The translations under genes were made by a program, and so were the position numbers. From sequence record PQ863255.1: 64,000 nt of DNA; one strand, written 5' to 3'. Origin of the DNA: Escherichia phage Ptacy1532. This document shows, one piece after another, positions 60,860 through 64,000 of the stretch. The notes below the pieces were generated by a model. It was not told the origin of the DNA and did not search any database. It saw only the letters and a list, made by a program, of their open reading frames with translations. Position 1 is the first letter of the stretch. Each line of letters starts with the position of its first letter.

Positions 60860-61225
60860 CTATGGATTTACACATTGACCGTTACCGGATTCTACTTCGT
60901 TCATGGACTCATCAAAGAGTGTCAACGATGAGCGCATCAAGTGATCCACCGTGATTTGTTTACCAGTGGATTCGTTTACCAGTTGAATAGTTTTATCATA
61001 TGATTGAACATGATCGAAATCATTTACATGTAAAATAATAACTTTAGGTGACTTTTTACCAGTTTCATAATTCTCTACGAGATAGGTACACTGTAAACCG
61101 TCAACCGTATCAGGGGAGAATGTTGCAGCCTTAACGCTACCCATAGCCGATAGCAGGACACCTAACAGAAGAACGACCAGAAAGAAGCCTACAACCATCT
61201 TAACGACGAATTTAATAAACCACAT
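60860..61225 (-). CDS. membrane-anchored/secreted protein
   Basis: N-terminal hydrophobic segment FIKFVVKMVVGFFLVVLLLGVLLSA. Confidence 0.45.
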   Translation of the reverse strand: MWFIKFVVKMVVGFFLVVLLLGVLLSAMGSVKAATFSPDTVDGLQCTYLVENYETGKKSPKVIILHVNDFDHVQSYDKTIQLVNESTGKQITVDHLMRSSLTLFDESMNEVESGNGQCVNP

Positions 61226-61581: not shown

Positions 61582-61801
61582 AACGTTTCCAATCCTTATT
61601 GTATTTGAGAATAGACACATACTCAGGGCCGGACAAAGTGCCGCCTAAGTAAGTAACCGTCATTCGTGCGCTAAACTCTGAAAGGTTGCACAATACGGCA
61701 AGTGGTACACGACTTTCACCGCGACTACTTGCAACTAACACAACATTATCAAAGATAGTTACGCTATCATTAACAAGGATGTTATTTCCCATTGGTATCA
61801 T
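61571..61801 (-). CDS. small protein, member of a 3-gene tandem paralog set
   Basis: RVPLAVLCNL core; start uncertain. Confidence 0.4.
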   Translation of the reverse strand: MIPMGNNILVNDSVTIFDNVVLVASSRGESRVPLAVLCNLSEFSARMTVTYLGGTLSGPEYVSILKYNKDWKRYGE

Positions 61802-62048
61802 CCTTAATTAATCCTTCACTTAACAGATTAGTCAGTGACAAATCACCGTCAATATAGATTGACTTGAAATCATCGCGGTTAATATCAATACGCACCAATT
61901 GAAGCCATTTTTTGGCCTCATTAAAGCTCATGGAACAAAAAGCAACAACGGGAACTATAATCTGACCATCGCGCATATTAAACTCGATAGATTGCCCACC
62001 AACAAAACAAGAAAAGCCGTTAGATAATTTAACTTCTTTGATAGCCAT
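61782..62048 (-). CDS. small protein, member of a 3-gene tandem paralog set
   Basis: QIIVPVVAFCSM core. Confidence 0.45.
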   Translation of the reverse strand: MAIKEVKLSNGFSCFVGGQSIEFNMRDGQIIVPVVAFCSMSFNEAKKWLQLVRIDINRDDFKSIYIDGDLSLTNLLSEGLIKDDTNGK

Positions 62049-62084: not shown

Positions 62085-62957
62085 TCACTTACTAGCCTTA
62101 ATGCAGTTGGCTAAATTAACGTGAACGGTATAAACAGCGTTATCCGCGTTATTATAAACAGTAGTAGCGATCATCGACTCATTGATCGGGCCATAGCTAA
62201 CAAGGTTAGTAACGGCTTTAACGTCTTCATAACGTTGTACAGTGCCAAATGTCACCATATCCGCATCGTTATCGGTACGCTTGAGAACTAGATCACTGTT
62301 AGGCTGATTATCTAACGTTTTAGATTGAAAGAGAACGCCATCATTAGTAACGTTGCTAAATTTCATCTTTAGCACGATATTATTGCCGTCACTATCTGCA
62401 CCGTTGCAAATCATCCAACCTTTATTGATGGAACTAGAGAAGACACTAGCGGCATCAGTTGCAGGAGTAGTACTAGCAACAGCCTTATCAGAAAGAGATG
62501 TGACCAGTGCACTAACACCGATAGCTGCAACCAGTGCATAACTAGCCAGATTGACAGACTTCATTATCTTACTCGCAACAGTAGGCTTGATTGGCTGTTT
62601 CTTGTTTTTCTTATTCCATGCTTCAACCATGACAGACAAGCGGGATAATTCAGCTTTCACATCGCGGCAAGATTCAGGCCAATCTTTCTGATTCCAGCTA
62701 TCTAAATTTGCCTGAATATAACAATTAATAGCGTCCTGCATATCGGTAAAACCGTTTTCTTTGAACGTGCTTTCATCTTCACACTGTAAAGCGTTCGCAG
62801 TAGAGTTAATGATCAAGCAAGCCAGCATTACAGAGTTTTTGAATCCTTTACGTGCGCTTTCGTTTTCCATCCACGCAATAGGACTACCAACAGTTAAGTC
62901 TAAAGAGGAAAGGCTTTCGTTTGCTTTGTTCAAGTGGTTAATCGCTACTTTTGACAT
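62085..62957 (-). CDS. hypothetical protein with central TM segment (first gene of the minus-strand block)
   Basis: 290-aa ORF; hydrophobic LASYALVAAIGVSALVTSL. Confidence 0.5.
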   Translation of the reverse strand: MSKVAINHLNKANESLSSLDLTVGSPIAWMENESARKGFKNSVMLACLIINSTANALQCEDESTFKENGFTDMQDAINCYIQANLDSWNQKDWPESCRDVKAELSRLSVMVEAWNKKNKKQPIKPTVASKIMKSVNLASYALVAAIGVSALVTSLSDKAVASTTPATDAASVFSSSINKGWMICNGADSDGNNIVLKMKFSNVTNDGVLFQSKTLDNQPNSDLVLKRTDNDADMVTFGTVQRYEDVKAVTNLVSYGPINESMIATTVYNNADNAVYTVHVNLANCIKASK

Positions 62958-63003
62958 TTTGTTAATCCTTTTGGTTGATGAAAACTACAAACTACACTCG
63001 CAA

Positions 63004-63031
63004 CTATATAATAAAGGAAAAAGCTGTCAAC
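63004..63031 (-). promoter_or_regulatory. sigma70-like early promoter for the minus-strand block
   Basis: Minus strand reads TTGACA-16 nt-TATAGT about 45 nt upstream of the 62957 start codon. Confidence 0.4.
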
Positions 63032-63766
63032 CATTTATTTTCTAACTTTATTGCATCTTACTGAAAACTAAAGGAATTTAATTTACTAAACTTCCCCTAC
63101 TCAGAGAATCAGCTTACTGACTATTGTTACTTTATAACACTAATCCTACGGGTAGCAGACCAACATACCAGGACAAACGGGGATACAACAACCGCAGAAC
63201 AGACCACGGGGAAACATAGCCAGATAGTGCGGTAGTAATATACCACTTAAATAATTAGTTAACTATTAATGTAAACTCAAACATCAAAGACGTTCGTACT
63301 TCGTACTCACAAAGGCACGCTGAAAAAGAAAAGAATAAAAGAAATAATAAACATCAAACATAATCTTTCCACTTAATTAATACATACATCATTATTGCAC
63401 TCATAATCATTGCTATTGAAACTATTTACACTCAAACTATGGGGGATGTGGGCTATTACTTATGGGTATTATTAGACCTGTTATTATCACGCCTTTACTA
63501 GTTTATACAGTGCTGGCCTTTCTCTCACTCTTTAAAGGGGAACTAAATAAACGGGTAGCTAATGAATAGGATGGTATACACGGGGAAATAATTACGGGGA
63601 GTAGGCACGGGGAAAGGTGGAACATGTAAAGGGAAGGTAAAGGCATTGCCAATAACCCTTTTTTAAATGAGGACTCCCCCTTTTTAGGAAACGCGCGGGA
63701 AGCGGCTAGCCCCACTCGGTCAAATCAGAATTTTAAACTCTTATATATAAGGTTGAAAGAGAACTT

Positions 63767-63931
63767 ATGTGGAAAATTAAGTTAATCATTAAGCAATTCA
63801 AATGTGATCATGAGTACTATCGGATACGCAAAGCTTACGGGGATGAAAGAGTTCACACCCTTTATAAGTCCACTTGGAGATGTAGTAAATGTGGCAAGCT
63901 TAAACACAGCACATGGATGGACAGGCCTTAA
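63767..63931 (+). CDS. small Cys/His-containing protein (54 aa), first plus-strand gene after the divergent control region
   Basis: ATG with AAAGAGAA RBS; CDH ... CSKCGKLKH. Confidence 0.3.
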   Translation: MWKIKLIIKQFKCDHEYYRIRKAYGDERVHTLYKSTWRCSKCGKLKHSTWMDRP

Positions 63932-64000
63932 TGGAATGGATATTCTGGTTAGTAATAGTTTTCTGTTTATTCATCTGCTTCTCTATAGCGAGATGTATCA

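What the first reader, a model, noticed from the sequence alone, without database searches (positions are those of the whole stretch)
62958..63766. Divergent 0.8-kb control region with G-rich ACGGGGA repeats and a sigma70-like promoter
Between the first minus-strand gene (start 62957) and the first plus-strand ORF (63767) lies an AT-rich region with no credible ORF. It contains a TTGACA-16-TATAGT promoter facing the early genes and at least five copies of (A/C)CGGGGA(A/G) near 63176, 63212, 63588, 63602 and 63616. This is where early transcription, and possibly a genome terminus or packaging signal, would be expected.
Basis: partly seen in the sequence, partly recalled or inferred. Interest (0 to 1): 0.45.

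Follow-up and report, generated by a model that had tools for sequence, protein, structure and literature searches.

The report
Joined genome ends of a phiEco32-like phage
This non-coding stretch is where the two ends of a phiEco32-like coliphage genome were joined by assembly: it holds a known type of early promoter, the 193-bp terminal repeat, and conserved arrays of a 7-base motif that probably guide cutting and packaging of the DNA, so it is mostly ordinary but has one under-described detail.

Summary
A TTGACA-16-TATAGT promoter lies on the minus strand (63030-63003). ACGGGGA occurs five times in 809 bp, against two copies in the other 63 kb.

The window is a circularly permuted Kuravirus (phiEco32-like) genome. 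Window 63515-63707 aligns base for base with the experimentally mapped 193-bp direct terminal repeat (DTR) of phiEco32, YF01 and SU10. So 62958-63707 is the right genome end and 63515-63766 the left end. It is not one continuous control region in the virion.

The promoter is the homologue of the predicted sigma70 early promoter upstream of gene 128 (CDS125 in SU10).

The motif, generalised to AYGGGKA, forms two same-strand arrays:
- three copies 300-370 bp left of the DTR;
- four copies inside it, at +37, +66, +80 and +93 from the left cut.

Positions are kept across three genera. The motif changes in both arrays together (CGGGG to TGGGTA). Both DTR boundaries lie in the same GCT|AGCC context.

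Most likely the arrays are protein-binding sites for terminus recognition and packaging, like the unexplained CCTAAAG heptamer arrays around the T7 terminal repeat. An origin of replication is the main rival. The DTR and promoter are already known; the arrays appear undescribed in the papers I could search. Interest is modest.

The parts
62085..62957 (-). First right-arm gene, homologue of phiEco32 gene 128 (290 aa, function unknown)
   Evidence: ORF list. Same 873-nt gene in phiEco32 and YF01. PHROG 36409, unknown function, E 1.5e-199. No Pfam hit.
62958..63002 (-). Predicted 5' leader of gene 128: AAGGA ribosome-binding site at 62970-62966, predicted start site near 62995-62997
   Evidence: Read from the sequence. 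The start site is inferred from the -10 position and was not measured.
63003..63030 (-). Sigma70-type early promoter TTGACA-16-TATAGT (P128 / SU10 CDS125 promoter homologue)
   Evidence: Scan gives 11/12. SU10 Table S2 lists the homologous sequence. Annotated as a promoter in the SU7 record. Conserved in EP335, Bas87 and NC-B.
63148..63212 (+). Heptamer array A: ACGGGTA 63148, ACGGGGA 63177, ACGGGGA 63206, spaced 29 and 29 nt; lies 303-367 nt left of the DTR
   Evidence: Present with 27-30 or 13-15 nt spacing in all relatives examined. The block 63141-63255 is 86% conserved.
63240..63514 (.). AT-rich spacer between array A and the DTR (27-36% GC). Contains a strongly conserved block at 63370-63444 and two variable stretches.
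   Evidence: Composition. Per-segment identity is 94% for 63370-63444, against 64-65% for the flanks. The core is kept in EP335, Bas87 and SU7. Function unassigned.
63512..63518 (.). Left terminus context GCT|GGCC; the left genome end is predicted to start at 63515
   Evidence: Alignment with the phiEco32 left end, which starts AGCCTTTCTCTCAC. The boundary context ACAGTGCT|(A/G)GCC is conserved across genera. The SU7 record starts at the same base.
63515..63707 (.). 193-bp direct terminal repeat equivalent; one collapsed copy in this assembly
   Evidence: Alignment to both ends of phiEco32 and to YF01's annotated 'direct terminal repeat'. 89% mean identity in 13 relatives. Only one copy in the window.
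63551..63613 (+). Heptamer array B inside the DTR: ACGGGTA 63551, ACGGGGA 63580, 63594, 63607; that is +37, +66, +80, +93 from the left end
   Evidence: 94% conserved. Strong purine skew on the + strand.
63655..63703 (.). Most conserved part of the DTR. Holds the internal repeat CCCTTTTTTA (63656) / CCCCTTTTTA (63677) and GAGGACTCCCCCTTTTTAGGAAACGCGC.
   Evidence: Repeat family D13. The same internal repeat is described in SU10. The YF01 paper reports a highly conserved region at DTR positions ~130-170. Invariant even in Bas87, NC-B and EP335.
63704..63711 (.). Right terminus context GGCT|AGCC, an 8-bp palindrome centred on the cut; the right genome end is predicted at 63707
   Evidence: The phiEco32 and YF01 records end at ...GCGGCT. 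Context conserved. GCTAGCC occurs at only one other place in the window, so it marks the site but cannot be sufficient on its own.
63708..63766 (+). Conserved 59-nt leader between the DTR and the first left-arm ORF; at most a weak sigma70 promoter
   Evidence: 93% identity. No promoter match in the scan. SU10 authors list it as 'potential sigma-70 promoter'.
63767..63931 (+). First left-arm ORF (54 aa, CxxH...CxxC; homologue of the phiEco32 gene 1 region). Carries one more ACGGGGA at 63837.
   Evidence: ORF list. PHROG 7696, unknown function. The ACGGGGA at +321/+323 is kept in most Kuravirus relatives.

Best explanation
The region is the joined genome ends (the concatemer junction) of a phiEco32-like podophage of the genus Kuravirus. 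Reading inward from the right end of the virion DNA there are four elements:
- the 193-bp direct terminal repeat (63707 back to 63515);
- an AT-rich spacer with one conserved block;
- heptamer array A;
- about 680 bp from the end, a strong host-sigma70 early promoter (63030-63003), which fires leftward into gene 128 and the early gene cluster as soon as this end is in the cell.

The other side (63515-63766) is the left end: the same repeat followed 59 nt later by the first left-arm gene.

The AYGGGKA heptamers are most likely binding sites for a phage protein, and the small terminase candidate gp6 is the best guess. They would mark the junction in replicated concatemers and position the nuclease. 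The nuclease would then cut bluntly within the two GCT|AGCC sites 193 bp apart, with the repeat duplicated as in T7.

Basis of each step:
- Shown by homology to mapped termini: the identity and boundaries of the repeat.
- Shown by sequence and conservation: the promoter, the arrays and their fixed positions.
- Inferred: that the arrays bind terminase, which end enters or is packaged first, and the cutting mechanism.

Sub-confidences:
- junction and DTR identity: 0.95;
- promoter is a functional early promoter: 0.85;
- heptamers are selected protein-binding sites: 0.8;
- their role is terminus recognition or packaging: about 0.4.
For: Identity of the region:
- 97 phage records match, all phiEco32-like. 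The match to phiEco32, SU10 and YF01 stops exactly at the end of their records.
- Window 63515-63707 aligns with both phiEco32 ends and with YF01's annotated DTR.
- Termini were mapped by restriction, primer walking and sub-cloning in phiEco32, by read drop-off (blunt ends) in SU10, and by full-length nanopore reads in YF01.

Promoter.

Arrays are non-random.

Arrays are under selection:
- In 20 relatives from three genera, array B sits at +37 and +66/67 from the left cut in every case. Further copies lie at +80/+93 (Kuravirus), +83/+95/+126 (EP335) or +94/+109 (Bas87, NC-B, SU7).
- Array A keeps spacings of 27-30 or 13-15 nt.
- The motif itself changes from CGGGG to TGGGTA in both arrays of the same phages. 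That pattern is expected if one protein reads both arrays.

Cut sites: both boundaries share GCT|AG(C/G)C, conserved across genera.

T7 precedent, read directly from NC_001604: CCTAAAG heptamers lie inside the 160-bp repeat (17, 41, 60), in a 13-bp-period array right of it (175-340) and left of the right repeat (39621-39700). Inward-facing host promoters A1-A3 lie at 498-750.

Terminase lead: gp6, the gene just upstream of the large terminase and called the small terminase by the YF01 authors, is invariant over residues 41-100. It differs at residues 33 and 36 (N/N versus E/T) in exact step with the heptamer type in 18 loci.
Against: - No binding, cleavage or packaging data exist for the heptamers in any phage I could find. 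The function of the T7 arrays is, to my knowledge, still unassigned, so the analogy transfers architecture and not mechanism.
- The most conserved part of the repeat is not the heptamer array but the block next to the right cut (63655-63703), which could be the true recognition site.
- The gp6 correlation probably reflects one evolutionary event and tight linkage (the gene lies 1.5 kb from the repeat).
- gp6 has no family or solved-structure match that would confirm it as a small terminase.
- Array A is 300 bp from the nearest cut, which is far for a cleavage-positioning site.
- The termini of this particular phage were not measured, and the window holds only one copy of the repeat.
- The two primary phiEco32 papers (Savalia 2008, Pavlova 2012) could not be read.
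Confidence: 0.55

Rival explanations
1. The two heptamer arrays are iterons of a replication origin. An initiator protein would bind both arrays and open the 27-29% GC spacer between them (63250-63450), including the conserved block 63370-63444.
For: - The layout of direct repeats flanking a very AT-rich stretch is the classical origin layout.
- The spacer contains a 75-nt block that is 94% conserved with no coding or promoter explanation.
- The motif co-varies in both arrays, so one binder is likely.
- T7 secondary origins lie next to its terminal repeats (my own knowledge).
Against: - Only a 7-9 nt core is conserved, not the 17-22 nt typical of iterons.
- Array B keeps fixed distances to the left cut site, which an origin would not require.
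- Half of the putative origin would be duplicated at the other genome end, and the element would exist intact only at the right end or in concatemers.
- No initiator gene was identified. No DnaA-box or IHF consensus was seen by eye.
Confidence: 0.2
2. The arrays serve DNA entry or early gene control at the leading genome end. A host or virion protein would bind them to hold, pause or protect the entering end until host RNA polymerase engages the early promoter, as in transcription-dependent entry of the T7 left end.
For: - The order repeat, heptamer arrays, inward-facing strong sigma70 promoter at about 0.7 kb from the end mirrors the T7 leading end.
- In the relative 7-11, two validated early promoters also sit at the very right end, next to that phage's own short-repeat arrays.
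Against: - It is not known which end of these phages enters first.
- Array B is also present at the left end, where there is no strong promoter.
- The lineage-specific change of motif argues for a phage-encoded rather than a host reader.
Confidence: 0.15
3. The repeats have no protein partner. They would be a compositional by-product, or would act through DNA structure (G-quadruplex or hairpin) at the terminal repeat.
For: The + strand of 63550-63650 is strongly purine-rich (GC skew +0.57) and contains several G runs.
Against: - The G runs are separated by 9-26 nt, long for stable quadruplexes. In one lineage the runs shrink to GGG within TGGGTA while positions are kept.
- The single-stranded repeat folds no better than shuffles: z = +1.3, with 181 of 200 shuffles folding at least as well.
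- Chance is excluded.
- Position and motif conservation across genera indicates selection on the sequence itself.
Confidence: 0.05

Closest known systems
Terminal region of phiEco32 and its close relatives SU10 and YF01 (Kuravirus): 193-bp direct terminal repeat plus the sigma70 early promoter upstream of gene 128 / CDS125
   Same: - Sequence homology over the whole region, 87-93%.
- Same 193-nt repeat with the same boundaries.
- Same internal CCCTTTTTTA repeat.
- Same promoter sequence.
- Same flanking genes.
   Different: - In this record the repeat is present once, inside a permuted assembly.
- The left boundary reads GCT|GGCC instead of GCT|AGCC.
- The papers I could read describe neither the heptamer arrays nor the shared cut-site context. 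The original phiEco32 paper was not available.
Phage T7 terminal repeat with its CCTAAAG heptamer arrays (called SRL and SRR by Dunn and Studier 1983, from my own knowledge) and inward-facing host promoters A1-A3
   Same: - A short direct terminal repeat (160 vs 193 bp).
- A 7-nt motif repeated on one strand, both inside the repeat and beside it, at 13-nt spacing (13-14 and 27-30 nt here).
- Strong host promoters 0.5-0.75 kb from the end, pointing inward.
All T7 features were read directly from NC_001604.
   Different: - No sequence similarity (CCTAAAG vs AYGGGKA) and an unrelated phage family.
- T7 has a long array immediately right of the left repeat, whereas this phage has none there (one isolated copy inside gene 1).
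- Array A lies 300 bp from the repeat rather than adjoining it.
- These phages use a phage sigma factor, not a phage RNA polymerase, so the T7 roles of phiOL, phiOR and the polymerase pause site have no counterpart.
- The function of the T7 arrays is itself not established.
Repeated terminase recognition elements at cos and pac sites: lambda cosB R sites bound by gpNu1, and the P1 pac site with seven TGATCA/G hexamers flanking the cut (my own knowledge)
   Same: Several copies of a short motif, in fixed register, next to the site where terminase cuts. The motif differs between related phages with different specificity.
   Different: Those systems make cohesive ends or headful series, not blunt ends with a duplicated repeat. 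Binding by terminase is demonstrated there and only inferred here.
Iteron-type origins, for example lambda ori with four O-protein sites beside an AT-rich stretch (my own knowledge)
   Same: Direct repeats in one orientation beside, and here on both sides of, a 27-29% GC stretch.
   Different: The conserved core is only 7-9 nt. No initiator gene was identified. Half of the element lies inside the terminal repeat.

Membership tests
Kuravirus (phiEco32-like) direct terminal repeat | Sequence homologous, end to end, to the experimentally mapped 193-bp repeat of phiEco32 | tested here: met
   Window 63515-63707 (193 nt) aligns without gaps to both phiEco32 ends and to YF01's annotated repeat. 89% mean identity to 13 relatives.
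Kuravirus (phiEco32-like) direct terminal repeat | Flanked by the gene 128 homologue on the right arm and the gene 1 homologue on the left arm | tested here: met
Kuravirus (phiEco32-like) direct terminal repeat | The repeat is physically present at both ends of this phage's virion DNA, with ends at the predicted bases | not testable with these tools
   There are no reads or virion DNA. The window holds one copy only, as expected for a collapsed repeat.
Sigma70-dependent early promoter (phiEco32 P128 / SU10 CDS125 type) | -35 and -10 hexamers close to consensus with a 16-18 nt spacer, upstream of the first right-arm gene | tested here: met
   TTGACA-16-TATAGT, 11/12, the only strong hit in 1.3 kb.
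Sigma70-dependent early promoter (phiEco32 P128 / SU10 CDS125 type) | Conserved at the same place in relatives | tested here: met
   SU10 Table S2, SU7 annotation, EP335, Bas89, Bas87 and NC-B sequences. Relatives carrying a different first gene have only a weaker match.
Sigma70-dependent early promoter (phiEco32 P128 / SU10 CDS125 type) | Early transcript 5' end mapped downstream of the -10 | not testable with these tools
   Needs RNA data. The phiEco32 primer-extension paper (Pavlova 2012) is not held.
T7-type terminal heptamer arrays | A 7-nt motif repeated many times on one strand, in and next to the terminal repeat | tested here: met
   Eight AYGGGKA copies on the + strand between 63148 and 63613, four of them inside the repeat. 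The T7 pattern was verified.
T7-type terminal heptamer arrays | Arrays directly adjoin the repeat on both sides, with a regular 13-nt period | tested here: not met
   There is no array right of the repeat, and array A lies 303 nt left of it. Spacings are 13-14 and 29 nt. The resemblance is therefore one of kind, not identical layout.
T7-type terminal heptamer arrays | Sequence or phylogenetic relatedness to T7 | tested here: not met
   Different motif. The phages belong to Gordonclarkvirinae, not Autographiviridae. This is an analogue, not a homologue.
Terminase recognition (pac/cos-type) site | Repeated motif in fixed register with the cleavage site | tested here: met
   Copies at +37 and +66/67 from the left boundary in every relative examined, across three genera.
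Terminase recognition (pac/cos-type) site | Bound by the small terminase, and required for cutting and packaging | not testable with these tools
   There is only a correlation: gp6 residues 33 and 36 change with the motif type in 18 loci. gp6 has no confirming family or structure match.
Iteron-type replication origin | Three or more direct repeats next to an AT-rich unwinding stretch | tested here: met
   Arrays A and B flank 27-29% GC DNA.
Iteron-type replication origin | Repeats of about 17-22 nt with extended conservation, and a cognate initiator gene | tested here: not met
   Only a 7-9 nt core is shared between copies. The flanking genes have no known function and no DNA-binding family match.

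The most novel reading that the evidence does not exclude
The AYGGGKA arrays would be the sequence code read by the small terminase (gp6) of phiEco32-like phages. The code would sit at fixed distances (+37, +66 and onward) from a blunt GCT|AGCC cut, with a second array 300 bp upstream marking the approach to the junction. A two-residue switch in gp6 (N33/N36 to E33/T36) would retune recognition from CGGGG to TGGGTA. If so, this would be the first defined recognition code for T7-style packaging with short direct terminal repeats, and it would suggest what the T7 CCTAAAG arrays are for.
Probability: 0.25. Interest if true: 0.55.

Novelty: new member of a known kind. Interest (0 to 1): 0.33.

Why it matters
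For annotation, it fixes the physical ends of this genome at 63515 and 63707. It shows that the 'intergenic region' is two termini joined by assembly, and that the hypothetical proteins some records annotate over the repeat are not genes.

For biology, how terminases recognise and duplicate short direct terminal repeats is poorly understood. To my knowledge it is unresolved even in T7, whose heptamer arrays have had no assigned function since the genome was sequenced. A second, unrelated phage group shows the same kind of arrays, with positions fixed relative to the cut and a lineage-specific motif change. That gives a tractable system of natural specificity variants for swapping motifs and gp6 residues.

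It also matters for engineering these phages, several of which are therapy candidates, because the ends and packaging signals must be preserved.

Tried and rejected
- RNA gene: no Rfam match above noise (one chance snoRNA hit, E 0.92, outside the region). No tRNA.
- Tandem repeat: Tandem Repeats Finder finds only two trivial 2-copy heptamers. The arrays are interspersed, not tandem.
- Hairpin or cruciform at the repeat for T7-style duplication: the single-stranded DNA fold is no better than shuffles (z +1.3). A GGGGAGT/ACTCCCC pairing seen has no covariation, because the 3' arm is invariant where the 5' arm changes.
- Hidden gene:
  - The 70-aa minus-strand ORF over the repeat is open in most relatives, but its third codon positions vary least and it crosses both termini. 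It is a by-product of the pyrimidine-rich minus strand.
  - The 35-aa + strand ORF at 63462-63569 lies in the least conserved stretch and also crosses the left terminus.
- Rightward promoter for the first left-arm gene: nothing passes the scan.
- Phage-sigma promoter: TAATGTAAA at 63267 resembles the gp36 promoter core, but it lies in a poorly conserved, gapped stretch, and similar strings in EP335 and Bas87 are not at the homologous place.
- Confirming gp6 as small terminase: Pfam gives only a sub-threshold DUF5681 hit, PHROGs gives 'unknown function', and there is no PDB sequence match.
- Enlarging the covariation set: the viral-contig scan gave 5 loci and the metagenome scan 13. The result is still two states and probably one event.
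- Primary literature: Savalia 2008 and Pavlova 2012 are not held. A full-text search for the motif together with phiEco32 found nothing, and a search for the T7 heptamer found nothing relevant.
Full report
**What is in the sequence**

Between the ATG of the minus-strand gene (62957) and the first plus-strand ORF (63767) lie 809 nt without a credible gene.

On the minus strand there is a near-consensus sigma70 promoter: TTGACA at 63030-63025, a 16-nt spacer, and TATAGT at 63008-63003. It scores 11 of 12 and is the only strong match in 62700-64000. An AAGGA ribosome-binding site lies 8 nt before the ATG.

The heptamer ACGGGGA starts at 63177, 63206, 63580, 63594 and 63607, always on the + strand.
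- The remaining 62,957 nt of the window hold two copies on both strands together, so about 0.013 copies per strand are expected here.
- Only 8 of 2000 dinucleotide shuffles of the region give any 7-mer five times.
- Relaxing the motif to AYGGGKA adds ACGGGTA at 63148 and 63551, and one ACGGGGA at 63837 inside the first ORF.

The region is AT-rich on average (36.5% GC against 41.9%). It alternates between 27-31% GC blocks and two 43-49% GC islands that carry the repeats.

**Where the window comes from**

The region matches 97 phage records, all phiEco32-like coliphages (Gordonclarkvirinae, mostly Kuravirus), at 80-93% identity.

In the records that are anchored on the physical genome ends (phiEco32, SU10, YF01), the match runs to the very last base of the record and then restarts at the first base. 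An alignment shows that window 63515-63707 corresponds, without gaps, to three things: the last 193 nt of phiEco32 and YF01, the first 193 nt of phiEco32, and the feature annotated 'direct terminal repeat' in YF01.

Those ends were determined experimentally:
- in SU10 by sharp read drop-off, indicating blunt ends;
- in YF01 by nanopore reads spanning the whole genome.

The window holds a single copy. The record is therefore a circularly permuted assembly in which the repeat has collapsed. Window 62958-63707 is the right end of the virion DNA and 63515-63766 the left end. The flanking genes are the homologues of phiEco32 gene 128 and gene 1, both of unknown function.

**The promoter**

The sequence is the homologue of the sigma70 promoter that the SU10 authors list upstream of CDS125. 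It is annotated as a promoter in SU7. It is unchanged (TTGACA-16-TATAGT) in members of two other genera.

The right-arm genes it serves belong to the early class in phiEco32. In the more distant phage 7-11, the two validated early promoters are likewise at the very right end.

I could not read the phiEco32 primer-extension paper, so the start site (predicted near 62995-62997) is inferred. No comparable rightward promoter precedes the first left-arm ORF; SU10's authors mention only a 'potential' one.

**Anatomy of the repeats**

The heptamers form two arrays on the same strand.
- Array A lies on the right arm: 63148, 63177, 63206, spaced 29 and 29 nt, 303-367 nt left of the terminal repeat.
- Array B lies inside the repeat: 63551, 63580, 63594, 63607, that is +37, +66, +80 and +93 from the left end, spaced 29, 14 and 13 nt.

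Between them lies a 27-36% GC spacer.

I fetched 20 relatives and located the repeat boundary in each.
- Array B has a copy at +37 and at +66/67 in every case.
- Further copies lie at +80/+93 in Kuravirus, at +83/+95/+126 in EP335 and Bas89, and at +94/+109 in Bas87, NC-B, SU7 and ECBP2.
- Array A always shows 3-7 copies with spacings of 27-30 or 13-15 nt.

The motif differs by lineage, and it does so in both arrays of the same phage: ACGGGG(A) in Kuravirus and in EP335/Bas89, ACGGGA in Bas93, and ATGGGTA(G) in the SU7/Bas87/NC-B group. In each phage a variant of this motif is the most repeated G+C-containing hexamer of the region.

Fixed positions combined with a coordinated change of sequence is what a bound protein would produce. 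Chance or base composition would not.

**The cut sites**

The left boundary reads ...ACAGTGCT|AGCCTTTC (GCT|GGCC in this window) and the right boundary ...GCGGCT|AGCCCCAC. So the two ends are generated within two copies of GCT|AG(C/G)C that lie 193 bp apart. At the right boundary the cut falls at the centre of the palindrome GGCTAGCC (63704-63711).

This context is conserved in all three genera, even where the repeat equivalent is 205 or about 250 nt long. The SU7 record, set by PhageTerm, starts at exactly this base.

GCTAGCC occurs at one other place in the window, so the short site cannot be sufficient by itself.

**Conservation of the non-coding DNA**

Mean identity to 13 close relatives, by segment:

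| Segment | Coordinates | Identity |
|---|---|---|
| Array A block | 63141-63255 | 86% |
| AT-rich variable stretch | 63256-63369 | 65% |
| AT-rich conserved block | 63370-63444 | 94% |
| Variable stretch before the repeat | 63445-63514 | 64% |
| Repeat, positions 1-101 (two segments, including array B) | 63515-63615 | 93-94% |
| Repeat, positions 102-140 | 63616-63654 | 74% |
| Repeat, positions 141-193 | 63655-63707 | 91% |
| Leader before gene 1 | 63708-63766 | 93% |

The last part of the repeat contains the internal CCCTTTTTTA / CCCCTTTTTA repeat that SU10's authors saw varying in T-run length between reads. It corresponds to the 'highly conserved region ~130-170' noted for 30 phages.

The conserved AT-rich block remains unexplained.

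**What it is not**

- No RNA family, tRNA or tandem array was found.
- The single-stranded repeat has no unusual folding (z +1.3).
- A 70-aa ORF on the minus strand covers the whole repeat and is open in most relatives. However, the variable columns number 33, 31 and 19 at codon positions 1, 2 and 3, the opposite of a coding pattern, and the ORF would be cut by both termini. It is a side effect of the purine-rich + strand.

**Comparison with T7**

I read the T7 ends directly.
- The heptamer CCTAAAG occurs three times inside the 160-bp repeat.
- It occurs about twelve times at 13-nt spacing just right of the left repeat (175-340).
- It occurs several times left of the right repeat (39621-39700).
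- The host promoters A1-A3 face inward at 498-750.

Read inward from its right end, the phiEco32-like genome shows the same kind of order: repeat with heptamers, more heptamers, then a strong inward host promoter at about 0.7 kb. The two are analogues, not relatives. The motif, the exact placement and the phage families all differ, and T7 uses its own RNA polymerase.

To my knowledge the function of the T7 arrays has never been settled. Phage 7-11 has its own short-repeat arrays in the equivalent non-coding region: GT(A/G)TGGATA four times and GATGTTATA..GTAACA four times.

**Mechanism**

The reading I favour is as follows. After replication the genome exists as concatemers with one repeat per junction, the T7 model that the SU10 and YF01 authors assume for this group. 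A phage protein reads the heptamer arrays and so identifies the junction. The nuclease then cuts bluntly at the two GCT|AGCC sites, and the repeat is duplicated in the process.

The fixed +37/+66 register ties array B to the left cut.

The obvious reader is gp6, the 157-aa product of the gene just upstream of the large terminase, which the YF01 authors call the small terminase.
- gp6 is 88-93% identical across genera and invariant over residues 41-100.
- Residues 33 and 36, just before a basic KGNKFGRPKGSRGK stretch, are N/N in all 11 loci with CGGGG or CGGGA arrays and E/T in all 7 loci with TGGGTA arrays.

This is a lead and not proof. It is probably a single evolutionary event, the gene is only 1.5 kb from the repeat, and gp6 has no family or structure match that confirms its role.

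The main rival is a replication origin, with iterons on both sides of an AT-rich stretch that contains an unexplained conserved block. A role in DNA entry at the leading end is a further possibility.

**Verdict**

One correction applies: this is two genome ends joined by assembly rather than one divergent control region.

The terminal repeat and the promoter are already known for this phage group. None of the papers I could search describes the heptamer arrays, their fixed register, their coordinated change between lineages or the shared cut-site context, though the original phiEco32 paper could not be checked.

I rate it a new member of a known kind, with modest interest.

Noticed in passing
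window 63370-63444: A 75-nt AT-rich block (29% GC) is 94% identical in 13 relatives. Its cores ATACATACATCA..CCACTCAT and TTACAYTCAAAC.TGGGG are kept in three genera, while the DNA on either side is only 64-65% conserved. No promoter, ORF or RNA explanation was found. It may be part of an origin or of the packaging signal.
   Followed up: partly
window 63267-63275 (+); also 10218 (+), 20015 (-), 20087 (+), 26430 (-), 55240 (+): TAATGTAAA at 63267 resembles the core of promoters read by the phage sigma factor (tAATGTATAtA). Four perfect TAATGTATA sites elsewhere in the window probably mark the known middle and late promoters. The 63267 copy lies in a poorly conserved stretch and points toward the genome end.
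   Followed up: partly
window 63503-63715 (-): A 70-aa ORF covers the entire terminal repeat and is open in most relatives, and some public records annotate hypothetical proteins here. Third codon positions vary least and the ORF crosses both termini, so it is not a gene.
   Followed up: yes
L026:1697-2167, L024:1617-2081, L046:1380-1850, L045:812-1282 and others (gene upstream of the large terminase; outside the window): The putative small terminase gp6 is nearly invariant. The exception is a short stretch at residues 30-40, where N33/N36 versus E33/T36 tracks the heptamer type of the terminal repeat in 18 loci.
   Followed up: partly
L023:844-1108 (Salmonella phage 7-11, NC_015938 1-1200): The distant relative 7-11 has its own arrays of short direct repeats, to the right of its right-end early promoters: GT(A/G)TGGATA four times at 907-990, and GATGTTATA..GTAACA four times. 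This suggests the architecture is general while the motif is not.
   Followed up: partly
window 63837-63843: A sixth ACGGGGA lies inside the first left-arm ORF, 323 nt from the left end. It is kept at +321 to +323 in most Kuravirus relatives. It may be coding coincidence or an outlying site.
   Followed up: partly
window 62958-63177, compared with L011, L012, L013, L015: In roughly a third of relatives, similarity begins only near window 63177 (inside array A), and the first right-arm gene is a different, 492-nt gene with a weaker promoter match. This points to a recombination boundary at the array.
   Followed up: no
L001:1173-1538 and 2098-2361; L003:945-1640 (phiEco32 RefSeq). Window ORFs of about the same length at 60860-61225 (-) and 61782-62048 (-).: Small early ORFs of 121, 87 and 231 aa are named 'terminase', 'polymerase' and 'ABC transporter' in the public record. 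The names look implausible for proteins of this size and position, and have spread into PHROGs.
   Followed up: no
window 63656-63665 and 63677-63686: The internal repeat reads CCCTTTTTTA then CCCCTTTTTA, so the T run is 6 in the first copy and 5 in the second. SU10's authors reported read-level loss of one T in these runs, differing between the left and right copies of the repeat. A collapsed assembly would hide such heterogeneity.
   Followed up: no
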